Part shown: positions 2,266 to 61,899 of the stretch, piece by piece
Position numbering within the stretch: position 1 is the stretch's first letter
Layout of the letters: each line of letters begins with the position of its first letter
Source of the DNA: Styela clava
Taxonomy: Eukaryota
Length of the DNA: 64,000 bases
Reading direction: 5' to 3'
NCBI RefSeq assembly: GCF_964204865.1
Contig: NC_135257.1
Span: 14,942,001 to 15,006,000, forward strand
Program-made: the position numbers and the translations under genes
The notes under the pieces: model-generated
The model's database searches: none
Told to the model about the DNA's origin: nothing
Seen by the model: only the letters and a program-made list of their open reading frames with translations

Positions 2266-2358
2266 GTTTGCATAATTCGAAGGTCAATTAATTGGCACAA
2301 ACGAACGTGATAAACAATTTCGTACAGGAAACGAGAAGATTCGCGTTTCGAGAGAGGC

Positions 2359-2566
2359 AGGTTGTAATGTTAATGGTTAATGTTAAGATTAATGGGGGGA
2401 ATGGGATTAAATAAAAAAATGATAAACAAAAACATGGAAACAAAAAAAAATATTTATTTATATATTTATAATAAAATGATTTGATACCAAAATATTAATA
2501 CGAAAATTCCGTTTGGCATTGGAATTTATTTGGCACAAAAAAAAAAAAAAAAAGGTTGTAATGTTA
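2359..2566 (+). mobile_element. Short retroposed insertion with poly(A) tail and 14-bp TSD
   Basis: AGGTTGTAATGTTA at 2359-2372 and 2553-2566 flanks 180 bp that end in an A-run of ~16 nt. Confidence 0.75.
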
Positions 2567-3935
2567 CTGTATATTTATGTAGGTCTTCGTACATAATCAA
2601 ATATGTTCCTCCCTTCCCTCACCCCAGGAAACTATATTATTCTTTTGCAATTAGGGCAATCCATGGCATGGAAACAATGTTTCGCTTTATACTGAACTAA
2701 CTGCAGCAAGTAGAGTTCATGTTTATACGGAGCACAAAGTTCTGAAATTGCAATTGTCAACAAGAGTCATATTGCTTCGAGCATTACCGGTACGGTAGAT
2801 GTCACATACTTCTGTACTTACATATAAATGTATGTATGTTTATTCGTCTTGTAATAGTGAAAAATAAATAATTTTTTTTTACATGCTTTATCTTAAAAAT
2901 AATTGTAATCGTATAAAATGATGATTATGAAAAAAATGGAATTATGGAAAAAATGAACCGTGATGAATTCTTCCTTGGAACAACCATGAATAAAATGTAA
3001 AACATATTATTAATGTACTGTTGGTAATTCTTTTTGATATTATTTTATATGTTATTTTTCATTAAAAAAAAAATGAAAAATAAATTGCCAATTATTATTA
3101 AGACAGGATGCATGCACAAGATCTACTGGACTAAAACACAAATGTACGGCATGTACCCCTTATGACAAATATAAAACAAAAAACGTTAGAATAAATATGT
3201 ATAGGCCTAATATGGTCCCTTATATAGACAGTTGTGCAATGTCAGAATGTGGGGCAATGGGTTGATTGGAGTGGTGAAAGTGATAATGGTGGAGTATGCA
3301 AAACTGTTTATACAGGGGAGTTTATAAGACAATATATATAAATAGAGCCAACACAACACCAGGTACAGGTACATAATGATGAAATCAAGATTTAGGCATA
3401 AATACAGCACCTTTGAGTGGTGAGACCATATAATTTAAATGGGCCAAGTATTAAAAGTGAATGTCGGTTCTTGTGTCTATATGGTATGCGGCACTCAAGG
3501 GTGATAGTAGAGTCTTCAATAGAATATGGCTATTTCAGCAAAAATGTGAACCATGCAGATTTTGATAAAATACTTCATTTCGCGTATCAAAATTTAGGTT
3601 TTCTTGTTTTATATATTAAATTAAAGCAGAATGTAGTAAGAATATAAAATAAAAATAAACTTGATGAAAAGCATTTCAATAAAACCTACCATGATTGCAT
3701 TTTTGCCAGAAGAAAAGAAATGTATAAAAGTACTATTCAATTGAGGCTATTACATTATAACTGTACTGACTTATGCATTCTTGCTATTATGGTACGGTAC
3801 TGTATTAGTGAAATTGTGTCTTTTAGTACGATTTATTTTTGTTTAATTTCTTTAGGCTCAATAGGTCTAGCCTAGTCCTAATTGTCAATTTCTTTTAGAT
3901 ATTTAGAAGTTATCTGTGTAATAATAAATACTTCC

Positions 3936-5135
3936 ATGATGGATAACAGAAAACGTGCTCCTGTAATAGTGATTTCAAATGATGTTCTGGATGATCTATG
4001 CAGCCGATTTTTATTGAATATTCCAGGACCTGAGAAAGATGATATGGTTCGTCTCTGTTTTCAAATTGAATTGGCCCATTGGTTTTATTTGGATTTTTAT
4101 CGAACAGAAAATCAGGATTTACCTGACTGTCGTGTACGAGATTTTGCGAAAATTATTTTTGAAAACTATCCATTCCTGCTCAAACCGACTGGTGCTAATA
4201 TTGATGAGGTAATAGATCGTTGGAGAGAATACAAACGTAGTGTTCCAACTTATGGTGCAGTTATCCTGGACGAAACTATGGACCATGTTTTACTTGTTCA
4301 AGGTTTTGTTGTTAAATCTAGCTGGGGATTTCCAAAAGGGAAAGTAAATAAAAATGAAAAGGCGGAAGATTGTGCTGCTCGTGAAGTTCTAGAAGAAACA
4401 GGATTTAACATAAAACCATACATGAACACAACAGAATATGTTGAACAGAGATTCAACGAACAACTCACAAGGTTGTATTATGTGGTTGGTGTGCCCTGCA
4501 TGACAAAATTTTCTCCTAAAACACGAGGGGAAATTAAAAGTGTAGAGTGGTTTAATATGGATGACTTGCCATGCCATAAAAAAGACATGACCCCCAAACA
4601 AAATTTATCTATGGCACCAAATAATTTTTTTATGGTGATACCTTTTGTTGCAAAGATACGAAAATGGATTGCAGGACAGAGAAATCGCTTTCAGAAGACC
4701 CAGAAATCTTCGAAACCATCAACACCAGTGAAAAAAATCCATCATTCAGGTAGCAATCATAAACTTGAAGGTCTCAGCAAAGCTCAGTTTGAGCATCTAT
4801 CAAGCACAAATCCTCTACCAGTTGTGAATAAGAAAGAAGATTCTTTAAGAGAAGCTGAAAGACAAAGACAATATTTTGCACAAGAAAACAACCTACAATT
4901 AGAAAAAATTCTACGAATTAAATCTGGAAAAAGTTCTCCTCAACCACAAAAAATTCAACCAAGAAACAGGTCTAATTCTCCTCATCATAAGTTGTCTTCG
5001 CCTGTGGGATATAGCTATGTCTCGAATCGTGGCCGAGGACGAATTTTATACAGTGAGGCCATGCCCGAATGTTGGAAAAACTTTCAGTTTGATTTAGCCT
5101 CGTTGCAGAAGGTCATTGATGAGTTTACACCGTAG
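3936..5135 (+). CDS. DCP2: mRNA-decapping enzyme 2 (Nudix hydrolase), single coding exon, ~399 aa
   Basis: Box A ([29 protein letters not shown]), Nudix box ([27 protein letters not shown]), [13 protein letters not shown], and C-terminal WKNFQFD motif. The first ATG is at 3936 (the ORF-track start is TTG). An acceptor-like TTTCTTTTAG ends at 3898. Confidence 0.96.
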
Positions 5136-6233
5136 TTATTAGTTACTACCTGATAACTATTCCCTTATGCATTTTTATCGTTGAAGGCTTTTGCACTGTT
5201 TAACAAATTTAAAATAAATGATTTTGTTTTACAGAATAGTGTTATTGGATTTAAATGAGATGAAATTGTGTTTTATTTTTTTTAAAGGAAATTTGTCAGA
5301 AGCAAAATTTGCTCTTTCACTCACTGAGAAATAAAGGTCGTTGATCTCTAAGCAAAGTTACAAACGTCCGCTAATGTGTCAAGAGCTACACAGACTATAT
5401 ATAGAGTTATAAGATAGAATTACACATTGGTAAATACCAATTGACAGAAAACATTTAAAAGCTGTTTCTGTCAATACAATCAGGAAAACAGTTATAAGGT
5501 AGTGAATTCCACATAACTGAAGTTCTTGAAAAATATTTTTGGTCATTTTGACTGGTAGGTACACTGACACTAAACTGGGGTGAGTGCCAACCAAGTTTGA
5601 CCACTGAAAACTTTTTTAGAAATAAATCCAGAAGAACACAGTTCATTATAATATCTGTAAAATGTTCACAGTGATGCAACATTCTGTTGATGGGAAAGAC
5701 CTTGGCAGTTCAGATGACAATTACATAGTATGAGATTAAAAAGTAATTTGAATTTACAACATCTTGTCTAACATGTATGATTAATTTGAGTTTGTCTCCA
5801 CGCATAGATAGACAAGACAAAAGGGAAAGCCACACCAAGCCTCAAAATTTTATATGGTTTTCTCTTTTGTACCGGATAATTGTTTTGGTATTTCAGAGCT
5901 ATTCGAATTATCCACCTGGCCTTAGCATTTACACCAAAGAATATATAACGTACAATCTGGTCATATAACTTTGAATAAAACTATTACATTTCATATCACT
6001 GTGTGCTAGTTAGTGTCTATTAACAGATTATGTGTTGAATACAATGATTTACCATTTATATAGACTTTTCTGTGGTTGAATCAAGTAGCCTTTTGCATAT
6101 TATTTTAATCAACAAGGAAAAGTCTTTATGTATTGGTGTTTATTATTTCATCATTTCTTGTTTATTTCCTTTGGTTTTGTTAATTCTTCAACTTCAAAGG
6201 TATGAGCACTGATAGATCTTTATATTTATCTAG

Positions 6234-7913: not shown

Positions 7914-8789
7914 TACGATTTTAAAGCATAAAAATATTATGGGTTTTCCCATAACTTCGCATGTACTTATATATATATATATACTGTATTAGTAAACAAC
8001 TCCGATGACGAATGTCGAAAAAGTCTTGTGGGGGTGGGGCGAAATGTATGGGCCAAAACGGCTGTAAAGTCTGTATACCATCATAACATTGTACAGTATT
8101 TTTTTAAATGCAATCACGTGCTGAAAACTTTTACTGTTGTTTCAAATTATTATCATCGCGATACTATCATAACGCCGTTCGTCGTTGTTTACTTCATCCA
8201 TTGATTTATATGCTTGATAGTGTTGTATGGTAAAGAATATAGATAGATGTGTTGTGTGTATGGTATATATAACAATTGGAATGCCTCAAAATTTTGGTAT
8301 CCGCATGTAACAAGTATGCGTGTTCCAGCGTTTATTTTGCTTTCTCTTTAATCACATGTGATTATTGCCCAAATGCGTCGACTTGGCTAAAGCGCGTTTG
8401 TCTTCGTCACACTATCAATTTTATTTTCATTTTTTTGTACTTCTATGTATGACTCACTTTATGTTACATGAAACGCCAGACGAGTCTCTTTATAAATGTT
8501 ATCATGCGCGTTCTACAGGAGTGGTAGCACAAAAGTCATATTGGAGGTGTCAAAATAGGGCTGACGAAATGCGGTCGTTGCGTATTAAATTGGGGGTGAC
8601 GAAATAGGGTCGTCGAGTCAAGTTAGGGGTGACGAAATACGGTCGGTGTGTGTCAGATTAAGGGTGGCGAAATACGGTCGGTGCGTGTCAGATTGGGGGT
8701 GACGAAACACGATCGTTCCGTGGTGTCAGGTTGGGGGTGACGAAATACGGTCGCTGCGAAGAAACCTTAAAGATTTGATTTCAAGGGTT

Positions 8790-9120
8790 CAATAGCGCAG
8801 TCAATATTCGAATATATTGCAATGCAATAAGAAAATAAAATTCATATTCTATTCGAGACATTCATCACTGCTTAATTTTTGTAAGAATGTATCTTCTTAA
8901 AGGAAATCTTTATCAAAATTTCACAAATCATGCGAAAATATTCACTTCGATGTTTGGAAGTACATATTTGTGCGAACAATTTTTTTCAAAAATGAACATT
9001 ACAAAGAACAAGCAAAGAACTGGGATTAGTGATGCCCATTTGGAAAATGTTCCACATTTGGCGTCGTAAAGCTACTCAGCGTGATGCAGCAACAAGACAG
9101 TGTCACATTAAATGTCATTG
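8790..9120 (+). pseudogene. hAT (Charlie/GTF2IRD2-like) transposase C-terminal dimerisation-domain fragment
   Basis: Reads HAKIFTSMFGSTYLCEQFFSKMNITKNKQRTGISDAHLE. A hAT-like terminus (CAGTGGTTCCCAAAC, minus strand) lies at ~9857-9871. Confidence 0.85.
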
Positions 9121-10052
9121 TAATATTTTTTTAATAAGACGACTGAGTTGAGTTCACGGATTGTCGCAGTTTTCGCGCGCTGTTCCGTTTTTAACTTTCA
9201 AAAAATATATGCGACCCGCAAAAGACTGGCAACCCTGAATTTTGTCCCGTGAGCCGTAGCCGATAGTCGATCACGACTTCTTCCACATCCGAGTCCATGA
9301 ATCCAAAAACAAATGGCTGATTAATTATGGACTGGTGATCGGACTGGAGGCCGTGGTAGGATGAGGAATCGGGGATGAATTTTACCAAAGTATTTTGGTG
9401 CATGTCATCATGCTGTACGAATGAATGAGATGTACGAAAATCATTATTAAAAGGTTTGGGAAAATTAACTTTGTTTTCATTATTTTAATGTGAAATAGGA
9501 TGAATTTAGGAAGTGAAATACTATAAGGCAAGAGTACACGGCGGTTTTTGAGGAGGTAGAACCCTGGATTCTTTCATTTCCGACCTATTATATAGTGAAA
9601 AAGGGGTTTTCAGCCGTGCTACTATTGCTTTCAAAACAACGAAATCGCCTTTTCACCAGTAAACGGGGTAATTTAAGATACAATAAAAAACTCGCTGAAG
9701 AACACCAAGCTCATCTATTTCATTAAAAAACACTATAAACTATGATTTGCCTTCTTATTTGATCTGTAATATATTCGTTTCTGACTTTATATTTTTTGTA
9801 TTGCCGGGGGGCGATGAAGTTGTATAAACTACTATAGGGGGGCGATTGTCAAAAAAGTTTGGGAACCACTGGTCTAATACATTTAAAGCAAGTATAGGGG
9901 TGACGAAATGAGGTCGTTGTGTGTCAAAATGGGAGTGACGAAACATGGTCGTCGAGTCAAGTTAGGGGTGGCGAAATACGGTCGTTCGTGGTGTCAGGTT
10001 GGGGGTGACGAAATACGGTCGCTGCGAAGAAACCTTAAATATTTGATTTCCG

Positions 10053-12250
10053 CATGTCAGAATAGTAGCAGCACGTTTTAAACTGGACATATATAATACC
10101 AAACATAGCGTATATTCCGGTAGTTTTATGAAAAGTATATATGTATCATAGTTAAAAGTGGTTTTGTAGTTCAACTAAATTTGCTAGATAATTTAACAAT
10201 TATCTTTTCACTTTTCAATATAGCGATATTGGACGTATAGTACATTTAAAATAAGTATCGGAGAGTATAAAATAGGAAAAAAAAACATTTAACGTCCCCT
10301 CGTGGGTACTTTTTGAAATGTCAAAAAATCAAAGTTTTGGATGGGCGATTTCTCGAAAACTTTCAATAAAGTCAGCATTACGATATATTTACAAAAAAAG
10401 AAAATAAAAAATCATATAAATTCGATTTCATCATGTCAGAATTGTAGCAGCACGTTTTGACCTGGCCATATATAATACCAAACATGGCGTATATTCCGAT
10501 AATTTTATGAAAATATAAATGTATCATAGTTAAAAGTGGTTTTGTTTTTCAACTAAATTTACTAAATAATTGAACAATTATCTTTTTTACTTTCGCATAC
10601 TCTGATACTGAACGTTTTTAAACATGGAATAAGTTACAGGTATTGTAAAATAACGATAAACATTATATGTCCTCTCGTGGATTATTTTCAATTCTGAAAA
10701 ATTACAATTTTGGTTGGACGATTTTTGGAAAACCTCCTATAAAGACAGCAATACGACACACTGGGAAAAAAGGGGAGACGTAATAGATTCGATTTATCGA
10801 TTGATCGATTTAGATAAAACACAAAACCAATTCAAAATATTTTACGTCTGAAGTGTTGAAATATCGAAGGATATGCGCTGTGTTTGATATTACGTGCTGC
10901 TACTGTTCTACTATGATGAAATGGAATCTATGAGGGTTTTTATTTTCTTCCAATGTGTCATAATACTGCCCTTATAAGACGTTTTCGAGATATAGCCATT
11001 CCAAAAACGATATATTGAAAATTTTGAAAAGAGTCTACGGAAAATCGTGAAATTTTTTTTGTTATTCCAAAGTAAGCTATCCGCAACTTATTCCAACTTT
11101 GAAACCGTGCTGCTACTGTTCTGCTAGGAAGAAATGGAATATAGAAGCTTAGAAAAGGTCCTCTTCTCCCAATGTTGTCTTTATTTAAAATTTCTAAGAA
11201 ATCGCTGTTTGAAGAAGACCTATTTTTACTATCAAAATTTTTTGAAAGAATCTGCAAGAAAGCGTAAATTGTTCTACTATTACATTGTAATTTACGCAAA
11301 TTACAACAACTTGTTAGACGTAGAACACGGAATTTAGACAATAGTTTTAGAAACTATTTACTCGAGTGTTTAGTAAATTTGAGTTGAACCACAAAACCCC
11401 GTTGGAATATTTTTCAAATTGTTAAAAATTCGAAGATTATACGCTGTGTATGGGATTATATACAGCCATATCAAACCGTGCTGCTACTGTTCTGCTATGA
11501 TTAAATGGAATCTAGAAGGGTTCTCCTTTTTTCTTTTTTCTAATATTTCGTAATGTTGGCTTCATTGTAGGTTTTCAAGAAATCGACCAACCAAAACTGT
11601 AGTTATTCAAAATAAAATCCACGAGAGGCCGTATAATGTTTATAGTTATTTTATACCATTCCCAACTTATTCCAAGTGTATAAGACGTTCCGTATCGGTG
11701 TATGAGACGGTAAAAAAGGTAATTGTTCAATTATTTATTAAATTTATTTGAAATACAAAACCACTTTTACCTAAATATATATTTTTCATAAAATTATCGG
11801 AATATACACCATGTTTTTAGTATTATATATGGCCAGTTAAAACGTGCTACTACTATTCTGTCATGATGAATTCGAATCTACAAGATTTCTTTTTTTCTCC
11901 CAATATGTTGTAATGCTGACTTTATAGTAGGTTTTCGAAAAATCGCTCATTCAAAACTGTAATTTTTATTTTTTTATATTTTATACTATTCGGTACTTGT
12001 TTTAAATGTATTAGACGTTCGGTATCAAAGTAAAAATATACTTGTTCAATTTTTCAGTAAATTTAGTTACATAATTTATTTAAACTATGATACATGTATA
12101 TTTTTCATTAAATTATTCGAATATGCGCTATGTTTTGCATTATATATGGCCATGTTGAACCATGCTGCTGTTCTGTCATCATAAAATCTATAGAGTTTCC
12201 CTTTTTCTTAAAATATGTCGTAATCTTGGCTTTATTAGAGGTCATCGAGA
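10053..12250. repeat. ~370-380-bp tandem units that switch orientation at ~10800
   Basis: Marker CAGAATAGTAGCAGCACGTTTT at ~10058 and ~10437. Its reverse complement (ACGTGCTGCTACTGTTCT) recurs at ~10892, 11104, 11475, 11841 and 12159. Confidence 0.8.
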
Positions 12251-12355
12251 AATACCTGCCTAAAAACGAGTCATTGGATCAACTGTAATCAATAGTTCTC
12301 ATAATACTTGTTTTACAGTTTATTTATTGCTACTGTTGCTTGTCTATGCGAACTA

Positions 12356-12575
12356 CAGGGTTGTCGCTATAAAAGCAGAAAATTTATCAAACATTTAATT
12401 TTTACAAAGAATGACTTTAATGAAATTATTAAAAGCATATGCTATATTACATTCATGGATGCTAAAAATGTCGTCTGTGCAGAGCAGTATCTTAGTCCAA
12501 GAAATTAGTAAGAATGCACTTTATCCCTGATGTCATTCGAGCTTCCAAATTTCTGCTTTTCTAGCGACCACCCTG
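12356..12575. mobile_element. Tc1/mariner-type MITE
   Basis: TA|CAGGGTTGTCGCTATAAAAGCAGAAAATTT ... AAATTTCTGCTTTTCTAGCGACCACCCTG|TA. Confidence 0.8.
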
Positions 12576-12789
12576 TATATTTCAAATGTGGCATCCAATG
12601 GTATCCAGCGAATCTAGAATTTAACAGACTAATTCAAAAGGTTTCACCGAATAGCACATAGCCGTATAACTATCATTTCATATTTACATAAACATTTAAA
12701 AGATTCTCGGTAATATTTCGAGTGCAATCTTCTGATTGGACCCATTTCTTTCAAAAACTTTTTCTCATTTCGACTTTGTACATTGTCAC

Positions 12790-13385
12790 ATGTGACCCGC
12801 CGAAGGTTTCCTAGTGGCCCGCGCGATATTATTCGAATCCCAATATTTTTCATAAATCTGAGCCATTATTGAAACTTCTAATAAAAAAGTTATTCCTCGT
12901 CGTTTAAACGCGCGAGAAGCACCACCCAGCTATCGAAAGCTTTTTTTATGTCCCTTTGTGGGCGTAATTACTGGAGAGAGATGTTTGAATTTATTTTTAT
13001 CGTCTGCCTTGTATTTTAATCTGATTTCCTGTCTTTTTTCTGCGAAGCTAGAAGAGGCAGTTTTCGTGACCTCAATATTTGACAGCACTTACTTGTGCGA
13101 GCAAGTTTTTTCACAGATGAACCATGTCAAATCCCCCTGAGATCACTAATTTCGCTAATGAAAAATTCGCTCTGCATTGCTACCTCGTCCATCGCACCGA
13201 ATATTGACAAACTTATTGGATAAAAGCGGTGTCATACTTTACATTGAAATATATATGCGTAGTAAAAACTCTCGACTTTACTATATCTTCGTATTTTCAT
13301 TGTGCTTATAATTTTGGTTTGCGGGTTTTATTTGTTTTTCATTAATCTGGCCCTTCGGTCAAAAAGGTTGGACTTCCATGCACTG
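12790..13385 (+). pseudogene. Second degenerate hAT element with transposase C-terminal fragment
   Basis: Reads FVTSIFDSTYLCEQVFSQMNHVKSP*..CIATSSIAPNIDKL. It has TGGCCC subterminal motifs and an AAAAGGTTGGAC..CACTG-like end. Confidence 0.75.
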
Positions 13386-14287
13386 AAGAATGCGTTTCAC
13401 TTACTTAACATCTTCTGAATAGCGTTTCATCTCTAAAAGACATTCTCATACAATTCGGTTCCTAACTGAAAGAATGAAAAACCAGTGTAAATTACATTCT
13501 AACGTGGGTATTCTTCCTGATATTTTACATGATGCTTGTAGACCTTATTCATACGAAAACATTTGAGCTTAATTTTGATATGATTGTTTTTTTTATGCCT
13601 ACTTTGTTGCTCCGAACTTCAACACTCGAACAACTTGACTATTGCAGTGACGTTTTTATTGCCCCCATGTAGACGTTACTTTGAGTCATTCATCATTTAC
13701 ATATTTCAAGTAACCAATGCCCTACACTCACATGAAAACCTTCTCTTATTATTTTAGTCATCAATCAAAAATTTCAAATTCGTTAATATCATAATTGAAC
13801 GAGCAAGTAATTTATATCTAGATATATTTAATTAATGCTTATAGCATCCCGAACGCTTGCCAACTAAATTATTATTCCATTAAAAGTTATTGATGGTCTC
13901 AGACAAACCTACAATATCACATCCTAGATGTCTTATCACATCTAAAGCTTTTGTTATTCACGTCATAAATAATGAGTGGTACTGGTAACTGATCTTGATG
14001 TGCACATGATCGTATTGATACCAGTTTCTATACAGTCTACACCGGGAATTTGTTGCTTACAATTATATTTGTCGTGTTATTGTTTTCTGTTTGACAAAAC
14101 AAATGAACTCTCTACTTAAAATATGAAAAATCTGTTACTATTTCGAGATGTCCAAGACTTGAAGAGCAAAACGTAATAATATATCAAACATACCTTCACC
14201 TTAAAAATTTTATTCAAATTAATAATCGAAAAAATTTGAAAGAAACTTTAAGAATTATTTACAATCTTTAGTAAAATTTAATTAGCT

Positions 14288-14412
14288 GATTTTGATTTAA
14301 TTTAAATTTGGCATACGACTCGATCCCTCTGCATAGAGAGATTTCGTTGATTTTAGTCTCTCTATGCAAAGTGATCCCAGTCGTACGTCAAATTTAAATT
14401 AAATCACGATCA
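14288..14412. repeat. ~125-bp imperfect hairpin (MITE-like)
   Basis: TGATTTTGATTTAATTTAAATTTGGCATACGACT..TGCATAGAGAG pairs with CTCTCTATGCA..AGTCGTACGTCAAATTTAAATTAAATCACGATCA. Confidence 0.7.
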
Positions 14413-14661
14413 CTTTGCACGATGACATAAAACACGTTTTTTTATGTCATTTTTATGCATAATTAAGTAACATAAAATATTAGAAATAGGAAAAAAATTG
14501 TTTGACACTATTTGGGGGCAAGGAAATTTTCTTAAAACGAATTCAACTAACTGTAAAATATTCTGTTATTCGTTTTTCATATCTTGTTTTAAAGCTCCCG
14601 ACGAACACAAACGTATTTCAGGCAACATTGTACAACAAGATAATAAATATGCAGATGTATT

Positions 14662-14916
14662 TCATAACGTTGGCCTCCGAACTGTGCCTCCGTTTGTGAT
14701 TTTTTGAATTTCATTGAATGTTACATATAGGGCGCGAAGTTCCGAGAGAAGATTGTTCCTTTGAGCGTTGACTGTTTTCACAATACGGCGTGCTCTTTTC
14801 CGAAATTTTGGTCCGTGATCGGTTCCTCATTCATGCAATAAAACACCAGATGCATGCACCATTTCATGAATCATAACTTCCAATACCTTTTCAAGGTTTG
14901 TCATCGCCGATTTCAT
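14662..14916 (-). pseudogene. Decayed SprT-like (zincin) metalloprotease reading frame
   Basis: Reads MKSAMTNLEKVLEVMIHEMVHASGVLLHE*GTDHGPKFRKRARRIVKTVNAQR. This contains HExxH plus the downstream HGxxF motif, with one in-frame TGA at 14829-14827. Confidence 0.65.
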
Positions 14917-15425
14917 AAATAATTTCTATTAAATTCTATATTTCCTGGCGTCACTACCGGTATACCCTCACATCTTTATTTAGGTTGATAATAATTAACA
15001 GAGGCTCAATTGCCACAATAAACATATAAATACTCGGCGAATTTCATTTTTAAATTTTAGTGATTCTTGTTTTCATCCAGCTCGCTGTCACTGATTGCGT
15101 ACCGGCACCCTACTGCCAGATTTACGGTAACTTGACACGCTCAGTGATATTTTGCCATCTGCATTCTGACACGCCTCGACCGTATTTCTTCACCCCTAAT
15201 CTGACACCACCACCGACCGTATTTCGTACCCCTAACCTGACACCACGCAACGACCGTATTTCGTCACAATTAACTCGACGACCCTATTTCGACACGCCCA
15301 TTTTGGCACACAACGACCGCATTTCGTCACCCCTATACTTGCTTTAAATGTATTAGACGTCCAATATCGCTGTATTATCTATCTAAAAAGTAAAAAGATG
15401 ATTTGGGTAAATTGGGTTCAAATAC

Positions 15426-17047
15426 CTAATTTACCCAAATGGGTCGCCGTATCGGTCTTTGCTGGGCTGTCTCCTCGGAGGGGAACTTCACGATCACTAC
15501 TAACAATCTCCTGATCGAGAGCGGCAAGAAGATAACTCGGGTGATACACCACGTGTCCAACACCCGTTGGTTGGACCAGGGGAAGACAGTTTCCTGTCAT
15601 TCCCGGTTCGGTTGCTCTAACAATCTCTCGCTCAGTTCCAGATCTCGTGGGTTTCGAAAGCTCGATCAAATCTTCTGCCGCTGCGATCCGTTCGTAGATG
15701 GTTTACGGCATATGCGGAACCACGGGTGACTTGTAGTAAGTGTGGATACGCAAACGAGACTCTTCCTCATGTGCTGAATCACTGTCGTCCAGTCATGATT
15801 ATCATCAAGGAGCGGCATGATTCGGTGCAAAAAGAGATCTTGAATCACCTACCTCCAGCCAGGTTTTCTAGGTGCGATGTTGACGTAGTTTGTCGAGAGC
15901 ACGCCGCTAGAACAGCTGAGATGCTGCGGCCCGATTTGATTCTCGAGGAAATTGGAACGAATCGGGTCGTAGTACTCGATGTGGCGTGCCCATTCGACAA
16001 CGGTGAGGCCGCTATAGATGACGCGGCCCGTCGGAAGCTCTAAAAGTATGAAGAGTTATGTCGCTCATTGCTCTTGCCTCTGGCAAAATCGTGGAGTTCC
16101 ATGCATTTGGGGTTGGTTCTCTTGGCAGTTATGCCGTTGGAAACCAGACTGCTCTTCGTGCTTTGGGTGTGACCGGAGGTGGTGCTACGGCGGTCTCCCG
16201 TAACTGCGTTAGGAACGTTATTCGAGGATCCCTTCGCGTCTGGAGGGCCTGGTGCGGACTTCCTGACAGTGTCGGCTAATCTTACTGCACCCCCTTTTCT
16301 GACACTGTTTTATTATCTTCTTCCCTTTTGTTTTGTATTTGTGTGATTGTGATCTTGCGTGTGTGTTTCGTTGTCCCATTAACCCTTTTGATTCCCACTA
16401 GTGGTTTCTCTAGGTAGTTTGAGCCATTTGCTCGGACTATTTTGTTTGTATTTCATCTTTTCCCCACCACTTGCCTCCACAAACTCACGCTCGGCGATGG
16501 GCTTGGGCCAACTTAGATGCCATATATATATATTAGTGTATACCGCTTGCCTTAGTTATCCCAATTTTAATTTGCAGTTATTGTGCACTTTTCCACGGTT
16601 TATTAGTTTGTTCGTTTCCTTTTTTTTTATTTGATAATTTATCAAACTTTTTCCACATTATTGATTCAGAATTTCACCCCGGTTGATAGGAAAAGGCGAG
16701 CGGTAATTATAATTCAGTTAAATTTTTCCATGTTTAGAACCCATCGCCAAGTTTGCCAGCCCCTCGCCACTACTTTATACTTGTTATTTTTGCTTATGAT
16801 TTTCTTTCCTATATTCTTTTAAGGGGGAGGGGGGGGGGGCTGGCTCAGTTAGATAAGCCCTACTCTTTCTTTATATTGACTTGTTATTCTTTACATGTTC
16901 AATTTAATTTTTTGTTAAGGTTAAATTCTTAAATTTGTATTTATTTATAAATACCGTTTTTGCCCCCCCCCCCCCCCCATGCGCGGGGGAGACCAGGGTT
17001 ACTGGCAAATGTACATGTTATTGAATAAAAGTGCATAAAAACAAAAA
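15426..17047 (+). mobile_element. 5'-truncated RLE-clade non-LTR retrotransposon (NeSL/Utopia-like), degenerate
   Basis: Motifs across frameshifts: DQGKTV..SN; KARSNLLPL; CSKCGYANETLPHVLNHC (CCHC knuckle); RHD; LRPDL..LDVACPFDNG..RKL*KYE; VGSLGSY..RGSLRVW. A ~770-bp 3' UTR ends AATAAAA..AAAAACAAAAAA. Confidence 0.9.
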
Positions 17048-17790
17048 AGACGTCCAATATCGCTGTATTATCGATCTAAAAAGTAAAAAGATAATTTGGG
17101 TAAATTAGGTTCAAATACAAAACCACTTTTAACTAAGATAAATATATATTTTTCATAAAATTACCAGAATATACGCTATGTTTGATATTATCTAGGTCCA
17201 GTTCAAAACGTTAAGGTTTCTTCGCAGCTACCGTACTTCGTCACCGCTAACCTGACACCACGCAACGACCGTTTTTGTGACCCCCTATCTGACACGCACC
17301 GACCGTCTTTTGCCACCCTTAATCTGACACGCACTGACCGTATTTCGTCACTCCTAACTTGACCGACGACCCTATTTCGTCACCCCCAGTTTGACACGCA
17401 ACGACCGCATTTCGTCAGCCCTATTTTGACACCCCCAATATGACTTCTATGATACCAACCCCTACGGTACACGTTGTAAACTTGTATTCTTGAGTTTTGC
17501 TTGTTTTCCGGGCATTTCTGGTTATGTTTTGTTCGATTCATTGAAGGTTTTGTTTTCAGAATTCCGAAATAAATTGTAGCCTATATTCAATGTTACTTCC
17601 AAGACTTTTTAGTCTACTCTTCGCTATGTGCTGATTGGAATGTCTTTTTATCCGTCTCTCATCTTTTCTCTTATTTTCTAGCCACTCCAGTCTCGGAAAC
17701 CTTGTCGCAGTACCATGTATGGTGCAAGAACTTGCTCACAGATAGATCGACATACCCTACTTGAGATAAACTTTAATCTACTATTCTACT

Positions 17791-18230: not shown

Positions 18231-19765
18231 TTTGTTCTACTGTATCATATTCCCCTTTTCTGGTCTGATAAGCAAACAATCAGTGGGACAATATTAGCAA
18301 ATGAAATAATGTTTTTTGGTACTTCCGTGGTATGTGTACCAGGTTAGAGTTAGGCCATTCATTCCGATTTTCCTTCGGGGTTCGGGGACTGTCTGTGTTA
18401 GCCAATTGAATATACTCCCTGCCCATAAGCTTCCGTTTCTTTACATTCTAATCAAATGTATATATATATCCCTGTTCAAATCCAATTTATAGTCCTGTGG
18501 ATAAATTGTATTCCCCAATAGGGTAGTGCCAAATGTATTCTTGTAATATGTCTTTAGCATTATTAGAGTACTACACTACATTCTTATTCAATACCCTGAG
18601 TTTTTTTTTTACGAGTTGTACGTAAAATGGTGGTATATCACTCGGCATACTCCCTAAGCAAACGACCCTGTCTTTTAGTTGAACAAAAATTTTCCCAATT
18701 TTTTTGTGACAGCCAGTACGGTCTCAAGCCCAACAATATGTTTCGGCTACGTGATTTTGGTGTAATATTGCTTCACAATGGTACGATACCGATACACGTA
18801 TGGTTTTTATTATGGGTTTTGTACTTTCTCAAAACGTTTCCTGGACCGGATGAATTCATGAACACCACTGTACTAATTCATCCTACGGTAAGCACATTAC
18901 AATCGCTGTATAACGTTATGGTAGTATTGCTGTATACTGGTTTACGGCTGTAGGACAAATAAGCAAACTCGGCAATACCGATAGTAAACTTAAAATTCAG
19001 ATATTTAAACCCTATTTCGGCCCAAATCCCACGCTAGAAAACACAATCTGGGACGACAAACTGACCACGCGTCAATGGCGAGTGAAAACGCTGGCTCGAG
19101 GCACTTGCCATGGTTTCGTCATAATTCGTGCAGTATCACATGACTCGTGGCATTACCGCTACTGGGGATGGGGATCAAAATACGTTAAAGGTTGATGGTT
19201 ACAGAAGATGCCCATCATAACGTGACTACATTTTCTGGCCACAATTACCCTAAACAAATGTTTGGAAAGTAGCAAGTTTTTTAAGCTAAAGCCTATTTTG
19301 GACAAATTAATTATAAACTATGATATTTGATATTTGTGATCGTTAATGTGTAGTCTATGTATTCTGAAGTTTGAAAATATGTAGGCCTAAAGAATAAAGA
19401 CAATGTCAACTTTTCTTCTGCATTTCTGCCCGATTTTCCTTTGAAATACTAAAAAAATCACTCGTGTTCGCGAAACTCGGTTCAGCAAATAATTAAACTG
19501 CAGCTCATGAAATTGCAGTGAGTAGTATTTCCCTTAATTGTTACGTAACAATGGAGGCAGACACAACGTAACATAGAGTAAGCGACATTGAAAGGTAAAA
19601 CAAATTTATTGATCATCACACAGCATTTAAAATGAGAAACAATAAAAAAATTACAATAAATACAATATGTAAAATATTCAATCATATATTAGTTATGTTC
19701 AACACAATTTTGTTTACTCAGCAAATCGCCGCGGCGTCCCCTTTGCGAATATCCCCATATATATA

Positions 19766-20408
19766 TCGCCGGATGAGAACAGAACAGGCTAGGTCACAAT
19801 TTTGAGTTTTGAGAAAAACGCAAGAAACAATTTGGAATTTTTTTATTTTTGAATTTCTAGATATTCACACTTAGTAAAGACGTGAGCTATGGTTATTTTA
19901 ATGTGGATGTGAATATCTTTGTAATCAATATTTTTTAGCACTCCAGCTTCAATTCCTTCCTGCTTTTTTAACCCCATAATGAACTTTGGCCCATTCTGTT
20001 CTCAACAACTTCTGATTTTTTTTGTATGGGATGCAAGGTAAAACAAGGTGACTTAGGCCTAAGTTGCACTGAAGAAATTTTTAGGGATGTAACATTTCAT
20101 TTCTAATGCTCATGCCCATCATATTAGAACTTGTGACTATCTTTTTCTGTATTTTGGGATTTTGAGCCATGCTCTACAAGGTGGTGGTCTTGAAATTCTG
20201 AATTTCATAATATTAAAAATTTTAGCTGGACTTAGGCCCATTCTGTTCTTAGCTTCTACAGTCCTAAGTCCAGCTAAAATTTTTATTATTGAGAAATTCA
20301 GGATTTCAAGATCACCACCTTGTAGAGCATGGCTCAAAACCCCAAAATATTGGAAAAAGTGAATTTTGCAAAAATGTGACTTAGGCCCCTACTGTTCTCA
20401 TCCGGCGA
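19766..20408. mobile_element. TA-flanked MITE with an internal 200-bp palindrome
   Basis: TA|TCGCCGGATGAGAACAG ... CTGTTCTCATCCGGCGA|TA. The internal inverted repeat at 20150-20350 explains the mirror-image ORFs 20137..20337(-) and 20162..20362(+). Confidence 0.85.
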
Positions 20409-21550
20409 TATGTCCTCTGCTGCGTCTAGCAAACGCAGTAAATTATTACTATGTTTTATATGAGAAAACACTATTGAAACTTGTATAAGGAGTATAATAT
20501 AAAAAGAGTCAGAATATATAAACGAGTCAGAAGATTAGACTATCGTAATCGTTATGAAGGGTATTTCGAAAGTTTATATGAAATGAAACACAACTGTTAT
20601 CGAATATTCTATTCTAATAAGTTAAAATATCCTAAGTCAGACACAATAGTAAAAACAGAGTAATTATGGGAATGATTATATGATAAGTTGAGTTGCATGC
20701 ACAAAATATCTAAAAGCAATTTTGGCACTACACCAACTAGCACTTATATATAAATTTGGATACATAAACTATAATTTGAAGCATCCAGGAAAAATAAAGT
20801 CTGTTGCTCAAATAATTAGCATTGAACATTCTGAGTCAATGGATATCTGTGGTCTTTTCTCTAGATTTTATATTCTCAGTACAAAATTTTAATTAATTTT
20901 GCCCGATTAGAACGATTTCCGGCTCGGATGCTCAATGTTGACAACATGACAAAAACTACTATCATACTGTAGTTTGTAATTTTAATTACAGTCAAGTTCA
21001 TGGATGGGCTACCAAAACAAAACACTGTTGAAATACATATCTACAGAGGATAAATACTCACTTCTCTCAGGTGAAACCAGTCTTGGTTATTTCTAAAGCA
21101 GATAAACAGTTTACCTAGTTGTATTTCATTAAAATAAAGTGCCTTTTTTCTAACCACATGGTATCAGGATTTTTCTCAGCCCTTTGAAGGAAGGTATTGT
21201 TGCAATGATTCGCCTCCCTTTTCTCACAAATAAGAAGAAATTTAAGAACTTTTATTTCGGTGTATATCAAAAATTGCAACGAGAGTAAATAATTCATAAC
21301 AGTTATCACTGACTGATTTATCATCAAGCAGCCATGCGTTCACCAGTCGTTGTATTTTATGTAAGACTATATGAAACAGATATAAGCGAAAACGATATAA
21401 CCGATTCCGGTATAAATTTAAAAATGTTACAAAATGTCTGATTTGCCATTTAAGTTTGTAAAAACACTCCCAATAATTAGAATGTGTTAGCACAGCTCTT
21501 AAGTATTACGATGACTCGATCCGCAGATACATTCGTATGTAACCTGGTTG

Positions 21551-22575
21551 TTAAATTCCATCATGAAACTGTATATTGTTATGCGAAACGACAACTAAAT
21601 GACTATTATTGGCCTGATTTTCATTTTGCACTGTATTTCTTACTTTATATGGAATTAGGATTTCTCTCCACTCTTTGAAAGAAAATATTACTGCAACGAC
21701 GTTAAAGACATTAAAAAGTGGCACCACAGAACCTAGGTCATACCAACTGTATTTGGATAGTAATACTGATACGAGTGAATACAATATTTGAGCAATAACA
21801 AAAGCCAGTGCTGTATAAAACGATCTTCTAATAAGAGGTGTTACGTACGAAAGAGAACTTAAACTACCGAACTCCCTTTCAATATCTCTTTTATGTTTCG
21901 CTAACGGAAAATAAAACATTCCTAGCAAAAGACACTCTGTAATTATTCTATGTGCACCTGTCAATATATATTGCCAAACAAATATTTCTTTCTCACAGGT
22001 GTAAAATCTGTGAATTGATGCAATCAAATGAAATATTGTCGATATGGTGGGCATCGCTATATGATATAAAATAATATAATCTTGCTTAACAGTCTAGTTG
22101 TGCGATTTGATAGACTTTGGAGATACGGATTTGTATAAATCATCCGTTGGCGACACCACAGTGATAAAAACAACATTGTATGACCAGAAACGATCGAGTA
22201 CGTTATAGTTATTTTTCCGATGGTACAATATTGTATACGAAAACAGTTGAATAATATAACGTTAATAAAAGCAACGCAAGTTGCTATTTGAAATGCAATA
22301 GCCGCGATTATACAATATCGCATATATTTTCCCCAGTCTAAGTCTCCCGAGTCTCTGGATCTTCTGTATCTTCGTTTTATTCTTCCGTTAAATCTGAGCA
22401 TTGCGATGAGCAAATGTGCAAAAATAACCAAGTACATAACCCTGATAATACTATAGAAGATGATCTCAAAATCGCTGTATTCAACAAAAATGTTTGTGTC
22501 GTTCAACTGGGCATATTCCGTTTTGTTCCACAACTGGACAAATTGGAAAAAAGTAACATTATCTTCAATCATCAT
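21551..22575 (-). pseudogene. Intronless 7TM/GPCR-like membrane protein split by one frameshift at ~22057 (pseudogene or sequence error)
   Basis: Two abutting ORFs join into ~340 aa. The N-terminus has three N-glycosylation sequons (NVT, NKT, NDT), followed by about seven hydrophobic segments, a Cys before TM3, LWCRQRMIY..P.L..L, LLLGMFYFPL and FNVFNVVAVIFSFKEWREILIP. Confidence 0.7.
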
Positions 22576-23569
22576 CCTTTTTTGATAATTTGATACTGTT
22601 TGTGAAGAAAATAAATTATTAGAATATGATAGATTACGGAATAATGACAATGCGTGTTATATTCGTACTAGGCATAAATATAGTCATGGCAGAATTCTAT
22701 GTTCTAACACTATTTTTACCTATTTGTACAATGAGCTACTTGCGACACTCAAATATCAATATATTATATATATTTCATACTAATAACGCCATGAACTGTA
22801 ATGTAATGAAATGTAATAAACTTGACATGGTTTTTGTTTCCTTCCATGGGTACACAAATGGATAATTTTGTCTGAAATTCATTGCCATCTCCGTTATCCG
22901 ATACTTTAGCAGGAATTTGTAAAGGCTTGTAAAGGCATGCTGAAACGAGAATATGCTTTTTTGTTACTCATTATAAAACATTGATAATGCTTACTTAGCA
23001 TAATGAATGGGAAAAACTTTTATCGAAATAAGCGAATTAAGAGACGATTAGTTTGGTAAAATTTCCAGTTAGACGACAGACGAATAATTGTCTTTCCTCT
23101 AATATAAAATAGATACGCTTTGCTGTTGTACCGGTCTACTGGATTCCCCTACGTCTATTACTGAATATGAACTAATTATGCGTGTCATTGCGTTGTCAAT
23201 TTGCAAAACATGTATTACGGTTATCGGATTATCTCTTTCGAAACGACGCGTAAATTTGTTATACGTTTTGCAATTTTAAATTGCTTTGAAATTTTCAGTG
23301 GCTGAAGATTGATTTTTTTGTTGGAAGACTATTTCTTTTATTCATTACTAAATTTTCTATGAATCCCATGAGATCTAATATTTCATCCAAAATTTCACTG
23401 TATCACTTTTTTAATGGGCGAACACGGTTTTTAATCCGCCCAGCGTGACGTGAGTTTTTTGAGGTTACCGGTAATGCTAAAGGTAAGATAGACTACTGCT
23501 TCTCTTGGTGTCAGTATTTGTAGACTGTGGTATCTGCTGTTATGAAACCGTAGTAAATCGAATTAGTTG

Positions 23570-24080
23570 GTATTTCAATTCACGTTGAAACATAATCGTC
23601 ACGGGACCTGGAAAATCCGTGTACCGGTCTAGCTGTCTGACAAACGAGGAGCGTCTGGCCCCACAGGTACCGGTACTGGTAAGTTACCCCACCGCATATG
23701 ATTATCGGGGAATCGAATAATTTTATTATTATTTTGCCCTAGTAACGGAGCAGTGACTCGGATCATTTGATATTTCAATTCATGTTGAAATTGGTCATTG
23801 CCACAGGACATGGAAAAGCTATGACAGACCCTGTACCGTTATTTGTACCCCGATCCAGGTTCTAGTAAGTTAACGCATATGATTTTGGGACGTTTTTTCA
23901 TGGGAAATGGTTGACTGCGGTACCTGATCCGGTAATACAGCAGTGACTCAGATCACGTGTTTAAACATAATCAGAAAGAAGGAATCATTGTCACAAGACC
24001 TAAAAAGCTATGACAGTTCCTGTACCGTCACGGTACCACGATACAGGACTGGTAAGCTACCGCATATGATTTTTGAGGAA
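23570..24080 (+). repeat. Three diverged ~185-bp tandem units
   Basis: Shared CAGTGACTC.GATCA, AAAAGCTATGACAG..CCTGTACCG and CT(G/A)GTAAG..CGCATATGATT, the last at ~23677, 23861 and 24049. Confidence 0.7.
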
Positions 24081-25171
24081 TTGCTCTGCGTGTCCATATA
24101 TTTGAGCATTGCTCGTTACGAGCATACGTCACACATATATGTTTGTTCGATAAATAGAAAATCTTTAATTAAATACACATTAAGAAAACCATTTTTTACA
24201 AACACGATAATGAAATTCTAATCCTTTTTCGAACATTAATATTTTAAACTGCTTGACGACTCATCCTCATATTTCAATACATTATTAACGTATTTGGGAA
24301 TAATCAGGTATATATAATAGGATATATGACATCTGACTGTTGATCTCACGATCTGGCAAATAAAAAATTCAATGAGTACATCTTAGCAAATGGATTAAAG
24401 CAGGTGATTGACAGTGTAACAGTAGAGGTTTGCAGCTGTTTATTGTAATATTTATTATCTGCTTATCGCAAGTCAACAAGACGATTTCTGAATTTCGTCT
24501 TGCACGGAGTCTTTTTTTTAATGAACTGTTCACAGAAATATGTGATGACGGAAAAGAGATCATTTTTATGCATGTTTTTCAGATTTTTGTTACAGATCCT
24601 TTAAAAATATGCAAATCATTTCCATGCTAGGCTTGTTTGTGATGAACGATCGCTTGTAATTTTGTTGTTCTTCGATAATTTTTGAAGGATTGTAAATTCG
24701 GCGAGTAACTAGTGAACGGAAAAGAGCATCCAGAGGCACTTTTCGATCAATATGTCTTTGTCGTATTTGATTCACAAGGCTATGGTAGAAATTTTGACTG
24801 TGTATATACCTCTATATATATAACTTATATTTCATCAATATCAGAAAGCTGTTGACACCAAATTGAGCATGTGGCAAATATCGAGACATGCTCATCAATT
24901 TTTTACCGAAATCAAAATCTATTTATGTTTAAAACTCATTTGGTCATATATTTAGAATGATAAAACAGAGATGATTGGCAGAACCCAAATGTATTTTGAA
25001 TTAAAAAAATGACAAAAGTTAGAAACTTGAAAATAAGAATCGAAGCTATGCAATCCCAGACTTCAATAGTAACATGTATAAAGACGCCGTAAATAAACTT
25101 TTGAATGTTGTGAAATACGAAAATTTATTTACAGGTGAGACACGTACGCTAATCACCCAAACGTATTAGAT

Positions 25172-25622
25172 CAGGGTGGTCTAAACCCAGGCCCGCGGGC
25201 CACATGTGGCCCGCCGCTTCATTATCTGTGGCCCGCGTCACATTTGGAGAGTAATCGATAAATCGCATTTCGTGTTGTTTCGTAATCAAATTTATCAGAA
25301 AAATCTTTTGACATATTGTTTCATCACTAATGTCACTGAATTGACTAGTGTTATGGCTGGCTGAGGCAAATAACGAAGTTGAATGATGTGCTTGGCAGTC
25401 TAAATTATGATCTGGCTTTCTATCTTTTTGGTCGGAAATATACTGAAAATCGAATGCAAATTCTATTAGCCTGGGATGGCTATGTCTGATAACTATGTGT
25501 TTGCACAATAAAAGTGTTTATTTTGTATTGCACTGTTTATCTATTCTTGGCACTATTGTGGCCCGCGAACAATGAAAATAAAAATTTGTGGCCCGCGGAG
25601 CCGACAACTTGAACCCCCCCTG
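25172..25622. mobile_element. hAT (Charlie-type) MITE with perfect 8-bp TSD
   Basis: TATTAGAT|CAGGGTGGTCTAAAC..GGCCCGCGGGCCACATGTGGCCC ... TGGCCCGCGG..CCCCCTG|TATTAGAT. Confidence 0.9.
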
Positions 25623-34795: not shown

Positions 34796-34913
34796 ACTGT
34801 CAGCTAAACTCAACCACGACGTATTGGAGAACTTGTATATGATTGAAAGGAAATTAAATGTTTATATCTTTCGCACTTATTTGATTCATCGGCATTAAGG
34901 ACATATTTTTTTC

Positions 34914-49959: not shown

Positions 49960-61899
<11,940 letters not shown>

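What the first reader, a model, noticed from the sequence alone, without database searches (positions are those of the whole stretch)
14662..14985. Hidden SprT-like metalloprotease relic inside the foldback element
Seen: the minus strand, missed by the ORF track because of an internal TGA, reads ..GYTGSDARKYRI**KLFMKSAMTNLEKVLEVMIHEMVHASGVLLHE*GTDHGPKFRKRARRIVKTVN. It starts within ~200 bp of the inner edge of the right inverted arm and reads inward. Established: HEMxH followed about 12 residues later by HGxxF and a basic helix is the zinc-binding signature of SprT-family proteases (SPRTN, GCNA/ACRC), which degrade DNA-protein crosslinks. Inference: the parent element may carry its own SprT-type protease, for example to clear covalently trapped or tightly bound transposase. 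I do not know of this as a described foldback cargo. Captured host or viral DNA is the alternative.
Basis: partly seen in the sequence, partly recalled or inferred. Interest (0 to 1): 0.75.

Follow-up and report, generated by a model that had tools for sequence, protein, structure and literature searches.

The report
Dead transposase tail with SPRTN-like protease
This is the broken last piece of a jumping gene's own transposase, left in a gutted copy; less damaged relatives in this genome and in sea cucumbers end in a zinc-protease domain predicted to fold like the DNA-repair enzyme SPRTN, which likely lets the transposon cut proteins off DNA where it lands, an add-on I did not find described in print.

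Summary
The motif is real. It is not a separate cargo gene or a host SPRTN/GCNA fragment. It is the last 78 codons of a Zisupton/KDZ-type (CxC4) transposase ORF: zinc fingers, CxC4, DDE core with SAP, Ulp1 SUMO protease, PHD, SprT. The 9-kb 'foldback' is an internally deleted copy of such an element. It shares termini, repeat-array arms, polarity and colinear 3' DNA with element D (74% aa in the relic). The stop codon is in 23 of 26 loci covering it, and copies decay neutrally (dN/dS 1.1); the domain was under purifying selection before (0.15). Three families here and 6 of 24 outside relatives, including two sea cucumbers, keep HExxH..H. A model of the domain matches SPRTN best (Z 10.1) but lacks its DNA-binding zinc domain. 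No paper was found; two key papers were not held. The locus is dead, but the parent architecture is a new variant with untested activity.

The parts
14686..14919 (-). Relic of the C-terminal SprT-like zinc-protease domain of the element's transposase ORF (78 codons, C-terminal half of the domain)
   Evidence: PF10263 over cut-off; 78% nt over 14668-14919 and 56/76 aa to element D; tblastn with parent proteins finds only this piece in the window
14854..14868 (-). HEMVH zinc-binding/catalytic motif
   Evidence: sequence; H, E, M, H invariant in 9 of 9 aligned domains
14827..14829 (-). In-frame TGA between HExxH and the third His, shared by the family
   Evidence: TGA in 23 of 26 loci covering the codon; a Gly codon in D (L021), L028 and L049
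14815..14817 (-). Third zinc ligand His (HG-x-x-F)
   Evidence: invariant in 9 of 9
14920..15137 (-). Arm-proximal sequence joined to the relic by the internal deletion; not protease-coding
   Evidence: no better than shuffles against the parent's upstream coding region; shared by family copies
15138..17467 (-). 5' arm of the element: inner 35-bp repeat array (15138-15336), spacer, outer array (17223-17432) and 5' terminus at 17466-17467; interrupted by a retrotransposon piece
   Evidence: terminus matches the 5' ends of elements D and A
12274..14667 (-). 3' non-coding region of the element, colinear in patches with element D downstream of its SprT stop
   Evidence: seven colinear blastn pieces, 67-91% identity
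8513..12200 (-). 3' arm: terminus at 8513, 35-bp arrays 8547-8759 and 9889-10021, ~370-bp repeat units 10027-12200; interrupted by a hAT-like insert
   Evidence: terminus matches the 3' end of D
8505..8512 (.). Probable degenerate 8-bp target-site duplication (partner 17468-17475, 6 of 8 identical after a one-base shift)
   Evidence: read by eye; suggestive only

Best explanation
The relic is the dead C-terminal half of an SprT-like zinc-protease domain that ends the transposase ORF of a Zisupton/KDZ-type DNA transposon, left in an internally deleted copy; in intact parents the domain is likely an active protease that, tethered to the transposase, likely cuts proteins off the DNA at the insertion site. 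Shown: identity of the relic, parent domain order, shared termini and polarity, 8-bp target duplications, purifying selection before and neutral decay after the deletion (about 0.95). Inferred: the parent domain binds zinc and cleaves protein (about 0.8). Inferred mechanism: the DDE core cuts and pastes, and the arm repeat arrays are likely its binding sites. The PHD likely docks the complex on nucleosomes, and Ulp1 likely strips SUMO from the complex or nearby chromatin. The SprT domain, lacking SPRTN's own DNA-sensing ZBD, would borrow DNA targeting from the transposase and cleave the spent, tightly bound transpososome or obstructing chromatin proteins so that host gap repair can finish insertion (about 0.45 among the possible jobs). 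The window copy makes no protease and would have been moved in trans through its ends.
For: Pfam hit over cut-off. 52 genome matches among 55 scored candidates. Parent ORFs carry CxC4, Ulp1, PHD and SprT; one uninterrupted 1588-aa ORF ends in HEMAH..H. The window is colinear with element D and shares arms and termini. Perfect 8-bp duplications flank 9 of 10 relatives whose two ends were displayed (A, C, L044, L045, L048, D, F, G, H; not B). dN/dS is 0.15 for family majority vs D (75 codons; pN/pS 0.23, bootstrap 0.12-0.40) and 1.11 for 23 copies vs majority. 6 of 24 outside transposase relatives end in PHD + HExxH..H, two of them from sea cucumbers. All 8 SprT-bearing outside proteins checked keep the Ulp1 His and Cys motifs. 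The domain model (pLDDT 85.7) matches SPRTN best (6mdx, Z 10.1, rmsd 2.9, 107 aligned; next 7.6); the profile's best PDB sequence hit is also SPRTN (E 0.0014). The core model matches DDE transposases/integrases (top Z 7.7) and D629, D835, E943 are invariant in 25 of 25. Transposon-type SprT domains form one group apart from host GCNA (98% SH-like).
Against: No activity, substrate or expression was shown. Most relatives lack the domain: 18 of 24 as listed, of which two are truncated and one has a full-length cluster mate that carries it. It is therefore an accessory, not needed for transposition. Other relatives carry USP, OTU or F-box modules instead, which fits counter-silencing as well as self-clearance. 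The SPRTN match is at fold level only: Foldseek E 0.019, 15-18% identity, with YbeY, abylysin and Wss1 at Z 7.3-7.6. Pfam scores for intact domains are often under the cut-off (A 25.5, F 17). No autonomous copy with exactly the window's arms was found, and D itself is frameshifted. Strict-register target duplications were absent in all 6 window-family pairs tested; one gives 8/8 and the window 6/8 after a one-base shift. Pfam KDZ (PF18758) was not hit. The SprT tree has few columns and its rows were chosen with a profile of these same domains.
Confidence: 0.6

Rival explanations
1. Same origin, different job: the parent's SprT-like domain is a counter-silencing weapon that, with the Ulp1 domain, likely cleaves host silencing proteins recruited to the element, rather than the transpososome.
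For: Relatives swap among Ulp1, USP, OTU, F-box and SprT tails, all ubiquitin/SUMO-pathway or proteolytic modules. It sits beside a PHD finger. A different transposase-like family with USP + Ulp1 has the same tail in 1 of 11 members. Fungal KDZ elements carry TET/JBP enzymes proposed to help escape silencing (PMC12730594, abstract passage).
Against: No substrate evidence. The closest structure is a DNA-protein-crosslink protease, and the helix after the third His is basic in all aligned members.
Confidence: 0.25
2. The domain is a maturation protease that likely cuts the ~1500-aa protein into separate functional pieces.
For: One very long multi-domain ORF. SPRTN autocleaves (PMC7534798, passages).
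Against: Equally long relatives lack the domain. No conserved cleavage linker was looked for or seen.
Confidence: 0.1
3. The relic is a captured fragment of the host SPRTN or GCNA gene (or viral DNA) carried passively by a foldback element.
For: Only half of the domain is present and it is broken. Earlier scan notes describe such captures in fungal Plavaka elements (unchecked).
Against: The relic is 56/76 identical to the tail of transposase D but 13/43 to host GCNA and 14/30 to the host SPRTN exon. The host genes are separate loci, GCNA with zinc ribbon and HMG. Downstream DNA is colinear with D. The relic groups with D and A at 100%. An ancient capture into the ancestral transposase is not excluded.
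Confidence: 0.03

Closest known systems
Zisupton DNA transposons (KDZ group; Bohne 2012 and Iyer 2014, neither read; known through passages of PMC12730594, PMC9297572, PMC12062965)
   Same: 8-bp target duplication, terminal inverted repeats, a ~1400-1600-aa protein, CxC4 domain, SAP-like insert, Ulp1 domain. The core is 39% identical over ~500 aa to a fish protein with CxC4, SAP, Ulp1, F-box and CxC7 (P0023), the F-box/CxC7 tail described for platyfish Zisupton.
   Different: The tail is PHD + SprT-like instead of F-box/CxC7. The arms are long, with 22-35-bp repeat arrays (foldback-like). Most of the ORF is one reading frame. Pfam KDZ is not hit.
SPRTN/Spartan (PDB 6MDX/6MDW) and GCNA/ACRC
   Same: HExxH plus a third His 12-17 residues later. 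Best sequence and structure match among solved proteins.
   Different: No zinc-binding domain after the protease core (the protein ends about 35-45 residues after the third His); no IDR or HMG as in GCNA. It is fused to a transposase and forms its own sequence group.
Wss1 and minigluzincins (abylysin, jannalysin)
   Same: Compact zincin core without ZBD; Z 7.1-7.4. Wss1 is SUMO-linked (recalled), as the Ulp1 neighbour suggests here.
   Different: 11-19% identity; stand-alone enzymes, not transposase domains.
Ulp1-carrying Mutator and Ginger transposons (search listing only; details recalled)
   Same: A DNA transposon carrying a SUMO-protease domain.
   Different: Different transposase family; no SprT domain in the listings (0 occurrences of 'sprt').
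MuA transpososome disassembly by host ClpX (recalled, no call)
   Same: A functional analogy: a DDE strand-transfer complex is very stable and must be removed before repair.
   Different: There a host unfoldase does the job; here the element would carry its own protease (inferred).

Membership tests
Zisupton/KDZ DNA transposon | 8-bp target-site duplication | tested here: met
   Perfect in 9 of 10 relatives with both ends shown; window family 1 clean of 6 pairs after a one-base shift, window itself 6/8
Zisupton/KDZ DNA transposon | Terminal inverted repeats | tested here: met
   Window arms 91-93% complementary; A, F, G, H inverted arms
Zisupton/KDZ DNA transposon | KDZ-associated cysteine cluster (CxC4, PF18717) | tested here: met
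   Element D 32 bits vs cut-off 26.9; over cut-off in 9 of 24 relatives; not hit in F
Zisupton/KDZ DNA transposon | DDE/RNase H catalytic core | tested here: met
   Model pLDDT 80.7; 7 top rows are DDE transposases/integrases, Z 7.0-7.7, rmsd 3.4-4.5, a middling Z; D629, D835, E943 invariant in 25/25; Foldseek gave nothing clear
Zisupton/KDZ DNA transposon | Pfam KDZ transposase model PF18758 | tested here: inconclusive
   Not hit in own proteins or in any of 24 relatives, including fish proteins with the CxC7/F-box tail defined from platyfish Zisupton, so the model does not seem to cover this branch
Zisupton/KDZ DNA transposon | Ulp1/SUMO protease domain (feature recalled from Bohne 2012) | tested here: met
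   PF02902 over cut-off in A and D; His and Cys motifs present
Zisupton/KDZ DNA transposon | SWIM finger and SAP domain (recalled) | tested here: inconclusive
   A CxC..CxH motif is visible but no Pfam SWIM hit; the helical insert matches SAP domains of FAN1 and a SUMO E3 ligase structurally; Pfam SAP hit only in 4 relatives
Zisupton/KDZ DNA transposon | Multi-exon gene | not tested
   ORFs begin without a start Met, so a 5' exon is possible; no splice analysis was run
SprT-like family (PF10263) | HExxH with catalytic Glu and three His | tested here: met
   Invariant in 9 of 9 aligned domains; in the relic a stop separates the third His
SprT-like family (PF10263) | Pfam gathering score 25.6 | tested here: met
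   Relic 28.3-29.7, D 26.2, P0001 26.9, P0004 31.9; below it A 25.5, F 17.1 and four others
SprT-like family (PF10263) | SPRTN-type protease fold | tested here: met
   6mdx Z 10.1, rmsd 2.9, 107 aligned, only hit at Z of 8 or more among 48,161 chains
SPRTN orthologues | ZBD and basic region after the protease core, plus SHP/PIP/UBZ (PMC7534798 passages) | tested here: not met
   The domain is C-terminal with no cysteine cluster after it; host SPRTN is a separate spliced gene
GCNA/ACRC orthologues | Acidic IDR, zinc finger and HMG box (PMC13092972 passages) | tested here: not met
   Absent from the transposase; present in the host gene L076
DNA-protein-crosslink proteases (function) | DNA-dependent cleavage of crosslinked proteins | not testable with these tools
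   Needs biochemistry

The most novel reading that the evidence does not exclude
Animal cut-and-paste transposons have their own family of SPRTN-like proteases, fused behind a SUMO protease on at least two unrelated transposase types (the CxC4/Zisupton type, and the USP-Ulp1 family of P0117). The transposase uses it to digest its own spent complex or crosslinked chromatin proteins at the insertion site. This would be a mobile-element-encoded DNA-protein-crosslink protease and a built-in transpososome disassembly device in eukaryotes.
Probability: 0.3. Interest if true: 0.78.

Novelty: new variant of a known kind. Interest (0 to 1): 0.52.

Why it matters
How eukaryotic DDE transpososomes are taken off DNA after strand transfer is largely open (own knowledge). 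A transposase that carries a SUMO protease, a histone reader and an SPRTN-like protease in one chain makes the question testable with point mutants, and this genome holds an uninterrupted 1588-aa example. It also offers a minimal SprT-type core without the ZBD, to ask what SPRTN's DNA sensor adds. It shows that these 'foldback' repeats are gutted Zisupton-type elements. The window locus itself is a dead remnant with no likely function.

Tried and rejected
(1) The upstream 14920-15140 as diverged coding sequence: a P-K..P..I register looked alike by eye but scored at shuffle level. (2) A hAT as the parent: hAT-like C-terminal pieces at ~8850-9100 (PF05699 E 0.15) and ~13050-13140 suggested it, but 8776-9871 also occurs as a separate insert elsewhere, and termini and ORF point to the CxC4 family. 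(3) An autonomous copy with exactly the window's arms: the transposase search gave 37 matches among 45 scored; loci K, J, I, M share no DNA with the window element; only D has sister arms. 16 of the 19 fetched window-family stretches L088-L106 gave a tblastn hit, always the SprT piece only. (4) A search of long proteins with F's PHD-SprT region found nothing; the core-region search did. (5) The ESM Atlas was not available. (6) A single-sequence PDB search gave only unrelated weak hits. (7) Expression: no RNA holder listed; contigs of four guessed-RNA runs cover scattered pieces of mostly deleted copies and none spans the ORF; no verdict. (8) A single origin of the SprT tail on the transposase tree: the quick tree (careful run unfinished) needs 3 changes, compatible with one gain and losses but not shown. 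(9) The retrotransposon piece as an arm-targeting element: 13 other copies have unrelated 3' flanks. (10) Literature: zisupton+sprt 0 papers; transposase+DNA-protein crosslink+transposon-encoded 0; SprT domain+DNA transposon 1 unrelated; searches listed nothing on this fusion. Iyer 2014 was not held; Bohne 2012 was not looked up by id; Repbase is not available. No complex prediction was run.

Full report
1. The observation. The minus-strand peptide is present as quoted. With stops read as X it matches Pfam SprT-like at 28.3 bits (102 aa) and 29.7 bits (59 aa), above the cut-off of 25.6. HEMVH lies at 14854-14868, the TGA at 14827-14829 and the third His at 14815-14817. Similarity to the parent protein begins at 14919. 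The 220 bases upstream, including the quoted GYTGSDARKYRI, score at shuffle level against the parent's upstream coding region (150 of 500 DNA and 258 of 500 protein shuffles as high). The relic is therefore 78 codons, the C-terminal half of the domain.

2. It is a repeat. A genome search gave 52 matches among 55 scored candidates, a lower bound. Of the best 30 loci, 17 have the 35-bp arm repeat within 1.5 kb. The TGA is present in 23 of 26 loci that cover the codon; this count includes the window and one tandem duplicate. The three exceptions are the more distant L021, L028 and L049. The family therefore spread after the stop arose. Against their majority line 23 copies show dN/dS 1.11 (pN/pS 0.81-1.58, 1604 codons, about 3.5% divergence). 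I left out L019 as a duplicate and eight loci of other families. Majority vs element D gives dN/dS 0.15 over 75 codons (pN/pS 0.23, 0.12-0.40). A vs D gives pN/pS 0.31 for SprT, 0.28 for Ulp1 and 0.17 for the core, with synonymous sites near saturation. The domain was kept by selection in the parents and has decayed neutrally since.

3. The parent. The 58-75% matches are the C-terminal ends of long ORFs. Pfam finds CxC4 (PF18717), Ulp1 (PF02902), PHD (below cut-off) and SprT in them. Three families occur. A/B/C/E have 34-bp arm repeats and are about 14 kb; A and B are 98% identical. D has 35-bp repeats that are a variant of the window's and spans 30.8 kb with inserts. F/G/H have 22-bp arm repeats, are 98-99% identical, and F holds an uninterrupted 1588-aa ORF ending in HEMAH..H. 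A, B, D, G and H carry frameshifts or stops. Nine of ten elements with both ends displayed have perfect 8-bp target duplications, read by eye. Zisupton is described with TIRs and 8-bp TSDs (PMC12730594, passages). A model of F's core (pLDDT 80.7) matches DDE transposases and integrases in its seven top rows (ISCth4 Z 7.7, rmsd 3.5, 159 aligned), with a SAP-like insert. These Z values are middling and Foldseek found nothing clear. D629, D835 and E943 are invariant in 25 of 25 rows. Pfam KDZ itself was not hit, not even in fish proteins with the CxC7/F-box tail that PMC12062965 (passages) ties to platyfish Zisupton.

4. The window element is a deletion derivative. Its two termini match the 5' and 3' termini of D, and the relic reads from the 5' arm as the ORF does in D and A. 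The relic is 78% identical in DNA and 56/76 in protein to D's tail. Seven further pieces between 12274 and 14604 are colinear with D's 3' region. No other part of the ORF survives in the window; 16 of 19 fetched family stretches gave a tblastn hit, always the SprT piece only. Target duplications in this family are poorer: none of 6 pairs matched in strict register, while one gave 8/8 and the window 6/8 after a one-base shift; several ends are degenerate or belong to different copies. No autonomous copy with exactly these arms was found. Non-autonomous derivatives of family A also keep an SprT piece among other fragments.

5. Not host DNA. The genome has a GCNA-type gene with acidic region, SprT, zinc ribbon and HMG (L076) and a spliced SPRTN-type gene (L077; label from motifs). 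The relic is 13/43 and 14/30 identical to them. In a fast tree of 107 domains the transposon-type rows form one 51-row group (98% SH-like) apart from host GCNA, and the relic groups with D and A. The tree has few columns, the host SPRTN exons were not included, hits without a complete motif were dropped, and the rows were found with a profile of these domains. It excludes a recent capture but does not name the ancient donor.

6. Beyond this genome. A core-region search returned 24 proteins. Six end in Ulp1-PHD-SprT with intact HExxH..H: four unnamed ENA proteins and proteins of Holothuria leucospilota and Apostichopus japonicus. A seventh, P0065, is a cluster mate of a truncated hit. Others end in F-box/CxC7, USP or OTU modules, or have lost the Ulp1 cysteine motif. 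The quick transposase tree needs three changes of the SprT label (careful run unfinished). A profile search of 1.84 billion representatives gave 198 hits at E up to 0.001 and 34 up to 1e-10, mostly gene fragments; 12 of the 150 listed have a PHD-like motif. One hit, P0117, has PHD, USP, Ulp1 and SprT but no match to the CxC4 core. It has a conserved D..D..CxxH..E pattern that I recall as Mutator-like, and it is the only one of 11 family members with the tail. The tail can therefore sit on a second transposase-like family; its ends were not examined.

7. The domain. H, E, M, H, H and one F are invariant in nine aligned domains. The model (pLDDT 85.7, pTM 0.84) has SPRTN as best match by profile (E 0.0014), Foldseek (E 0.019) and VIA-align (Z 10.1, rmsd 2.9, 107 aligned; YbeY 7.6, abylysin 7.4, Wss1 7.3). 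It lacks the ZBD and basic region that SPRTN needs for DNA-structure-specific cleavage (PMC7534798, passages) and the IDR, zinc finger and HMG of GCNA (PMC13092972, passages). It is an SprT-like family member by motif, score and fold, but not an orthologue of either. A shared fold does not show function.

8. Mechanism. Shown: origin, anatomy, selection history. Inferred: intact parents make one protein whose tail holds a SUMO protease, a PHD finger and an active zinc protease. DDE enzymes form no covalent intermediate, but their strand-transfer complexes are very stable (established knowledge; MuA/ClpX recalled). I therefore favour clearance of the spent complex or of obstructing chromatin proteins, with DNA targeting supplied by the transposase (about 0.45). 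Counter-silencing is the main rival (about 0.3), given the interchangeable ubiquitin/SUMO modules. Polyprotein maturation or a non-catalytic role take the rest. Sequencing runs gave no verdict on expression.

9. Novelty. Searches found no description of an SprT domain on a transposase. I saw passages of PMC9297572, PMC12730594, PMC12062965, PMC11210505, PMC7599744, PMC3424704, PMC7534798 and PMC13092972, search listings for the rest, and no supplements. Bohne 2012 and Iyer 2014 were not read; their text or supplements, or Repbase, could list this domain order, and the Pfam combination is already precomputed for a database protein (P0012). Two earlier AI notes of this scan reach the same reading; I consulted them after forming mine, and they are not independent evidence. 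Verdict: a dead remnant of a new variant of a known transposon kind, interest 0.52.

Noticed in passing
window 15426-17047 (+): 5'-truncated non-LTR retrotransposon piece (CCHC knuckle and restriction-like endonuclease motifs, recalled; no Pfam hit) inserted in the arm spacer with an unusually long 71-bp duplication (15355-15425 / 17048-17118). Thirteen other copies have unrelated 3' flanks, so it is not site-specific.
   Followed up: yes
window 8783-9871: Non-autonomous hAT-like insert with a decayed C-terminal dimerisation piece (PF05699 E 0.15); an 87% identical copy lies in L050. A second hAT-like relic at ~12560-13200 overlaps DNA partly shared with element D.
   Followed up: partly
window 14287-14412: A 127-bp imperfect palindrome 250 bp downstream of the relic, present in many family copies and not matched in D.
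   Followed up: no
window 10027-12200: About 370-bp repeat units in both orientations inside the 3' arm, related to the arm spacer; also found beside other copies (L028, L030) and near element B.
   Followed up: no
P0117, P0241-P0250: A family of 1300-2300-aa transposase-like proteins with PHD, USP deubiquitinase and Ulp1 (one with BAG); P0117 adds the SprT tail, giving three protease types in one chain.
   Followed up: partly
P0007, P0009, P0010, P0013-P0019: A sister clade of CxC4-type transposases that keeps the Ulp1-like and PHD regions but lacks the catalytic Cys motif and the SprT tail; possibly domesticated or re-purposed.
   Followed up: no
L042 (G000:C10:11738001-11748000), 1332-5600: A family-A non-autonomous element lies directly inside the 3' arm of a D-type element: one Zisupton-type family nested in another.
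   Followed up: no
L051/L052, L053/L054, L055/L056: Family F/G/H has a 5' region built of ~790-bp units, each with 33-bp repeat arrays, in varying number between otherwise 98-99% identical copies.
   Followed up: no
window 3882-5132 (+): Single-exon Dcp2 mRNA-decapping enzyme ORF (PF05026, NUDIX).
   Followed up: partly
window 2-1429 (-): Gag-like ORF with DUF1759, typical of Pao/BEL LTR retrotransposons (family link recalled).
   Followed up: partly
window 45787-48674; 19402-36500; 20142-20357: Further inverted-repeat pairs (175 nt at 95%, 110 nt at 82%, and a 95-nt hairpin), likely other non-autonomous DNA transposons.
   Followed up: no
window ~50800-63500 (-) and ~40400-42400 (+): Exons that look like a COE/EBF transcription factor and an SLC17-type transporter (recalled motifs, not tested).
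   Followed up: no
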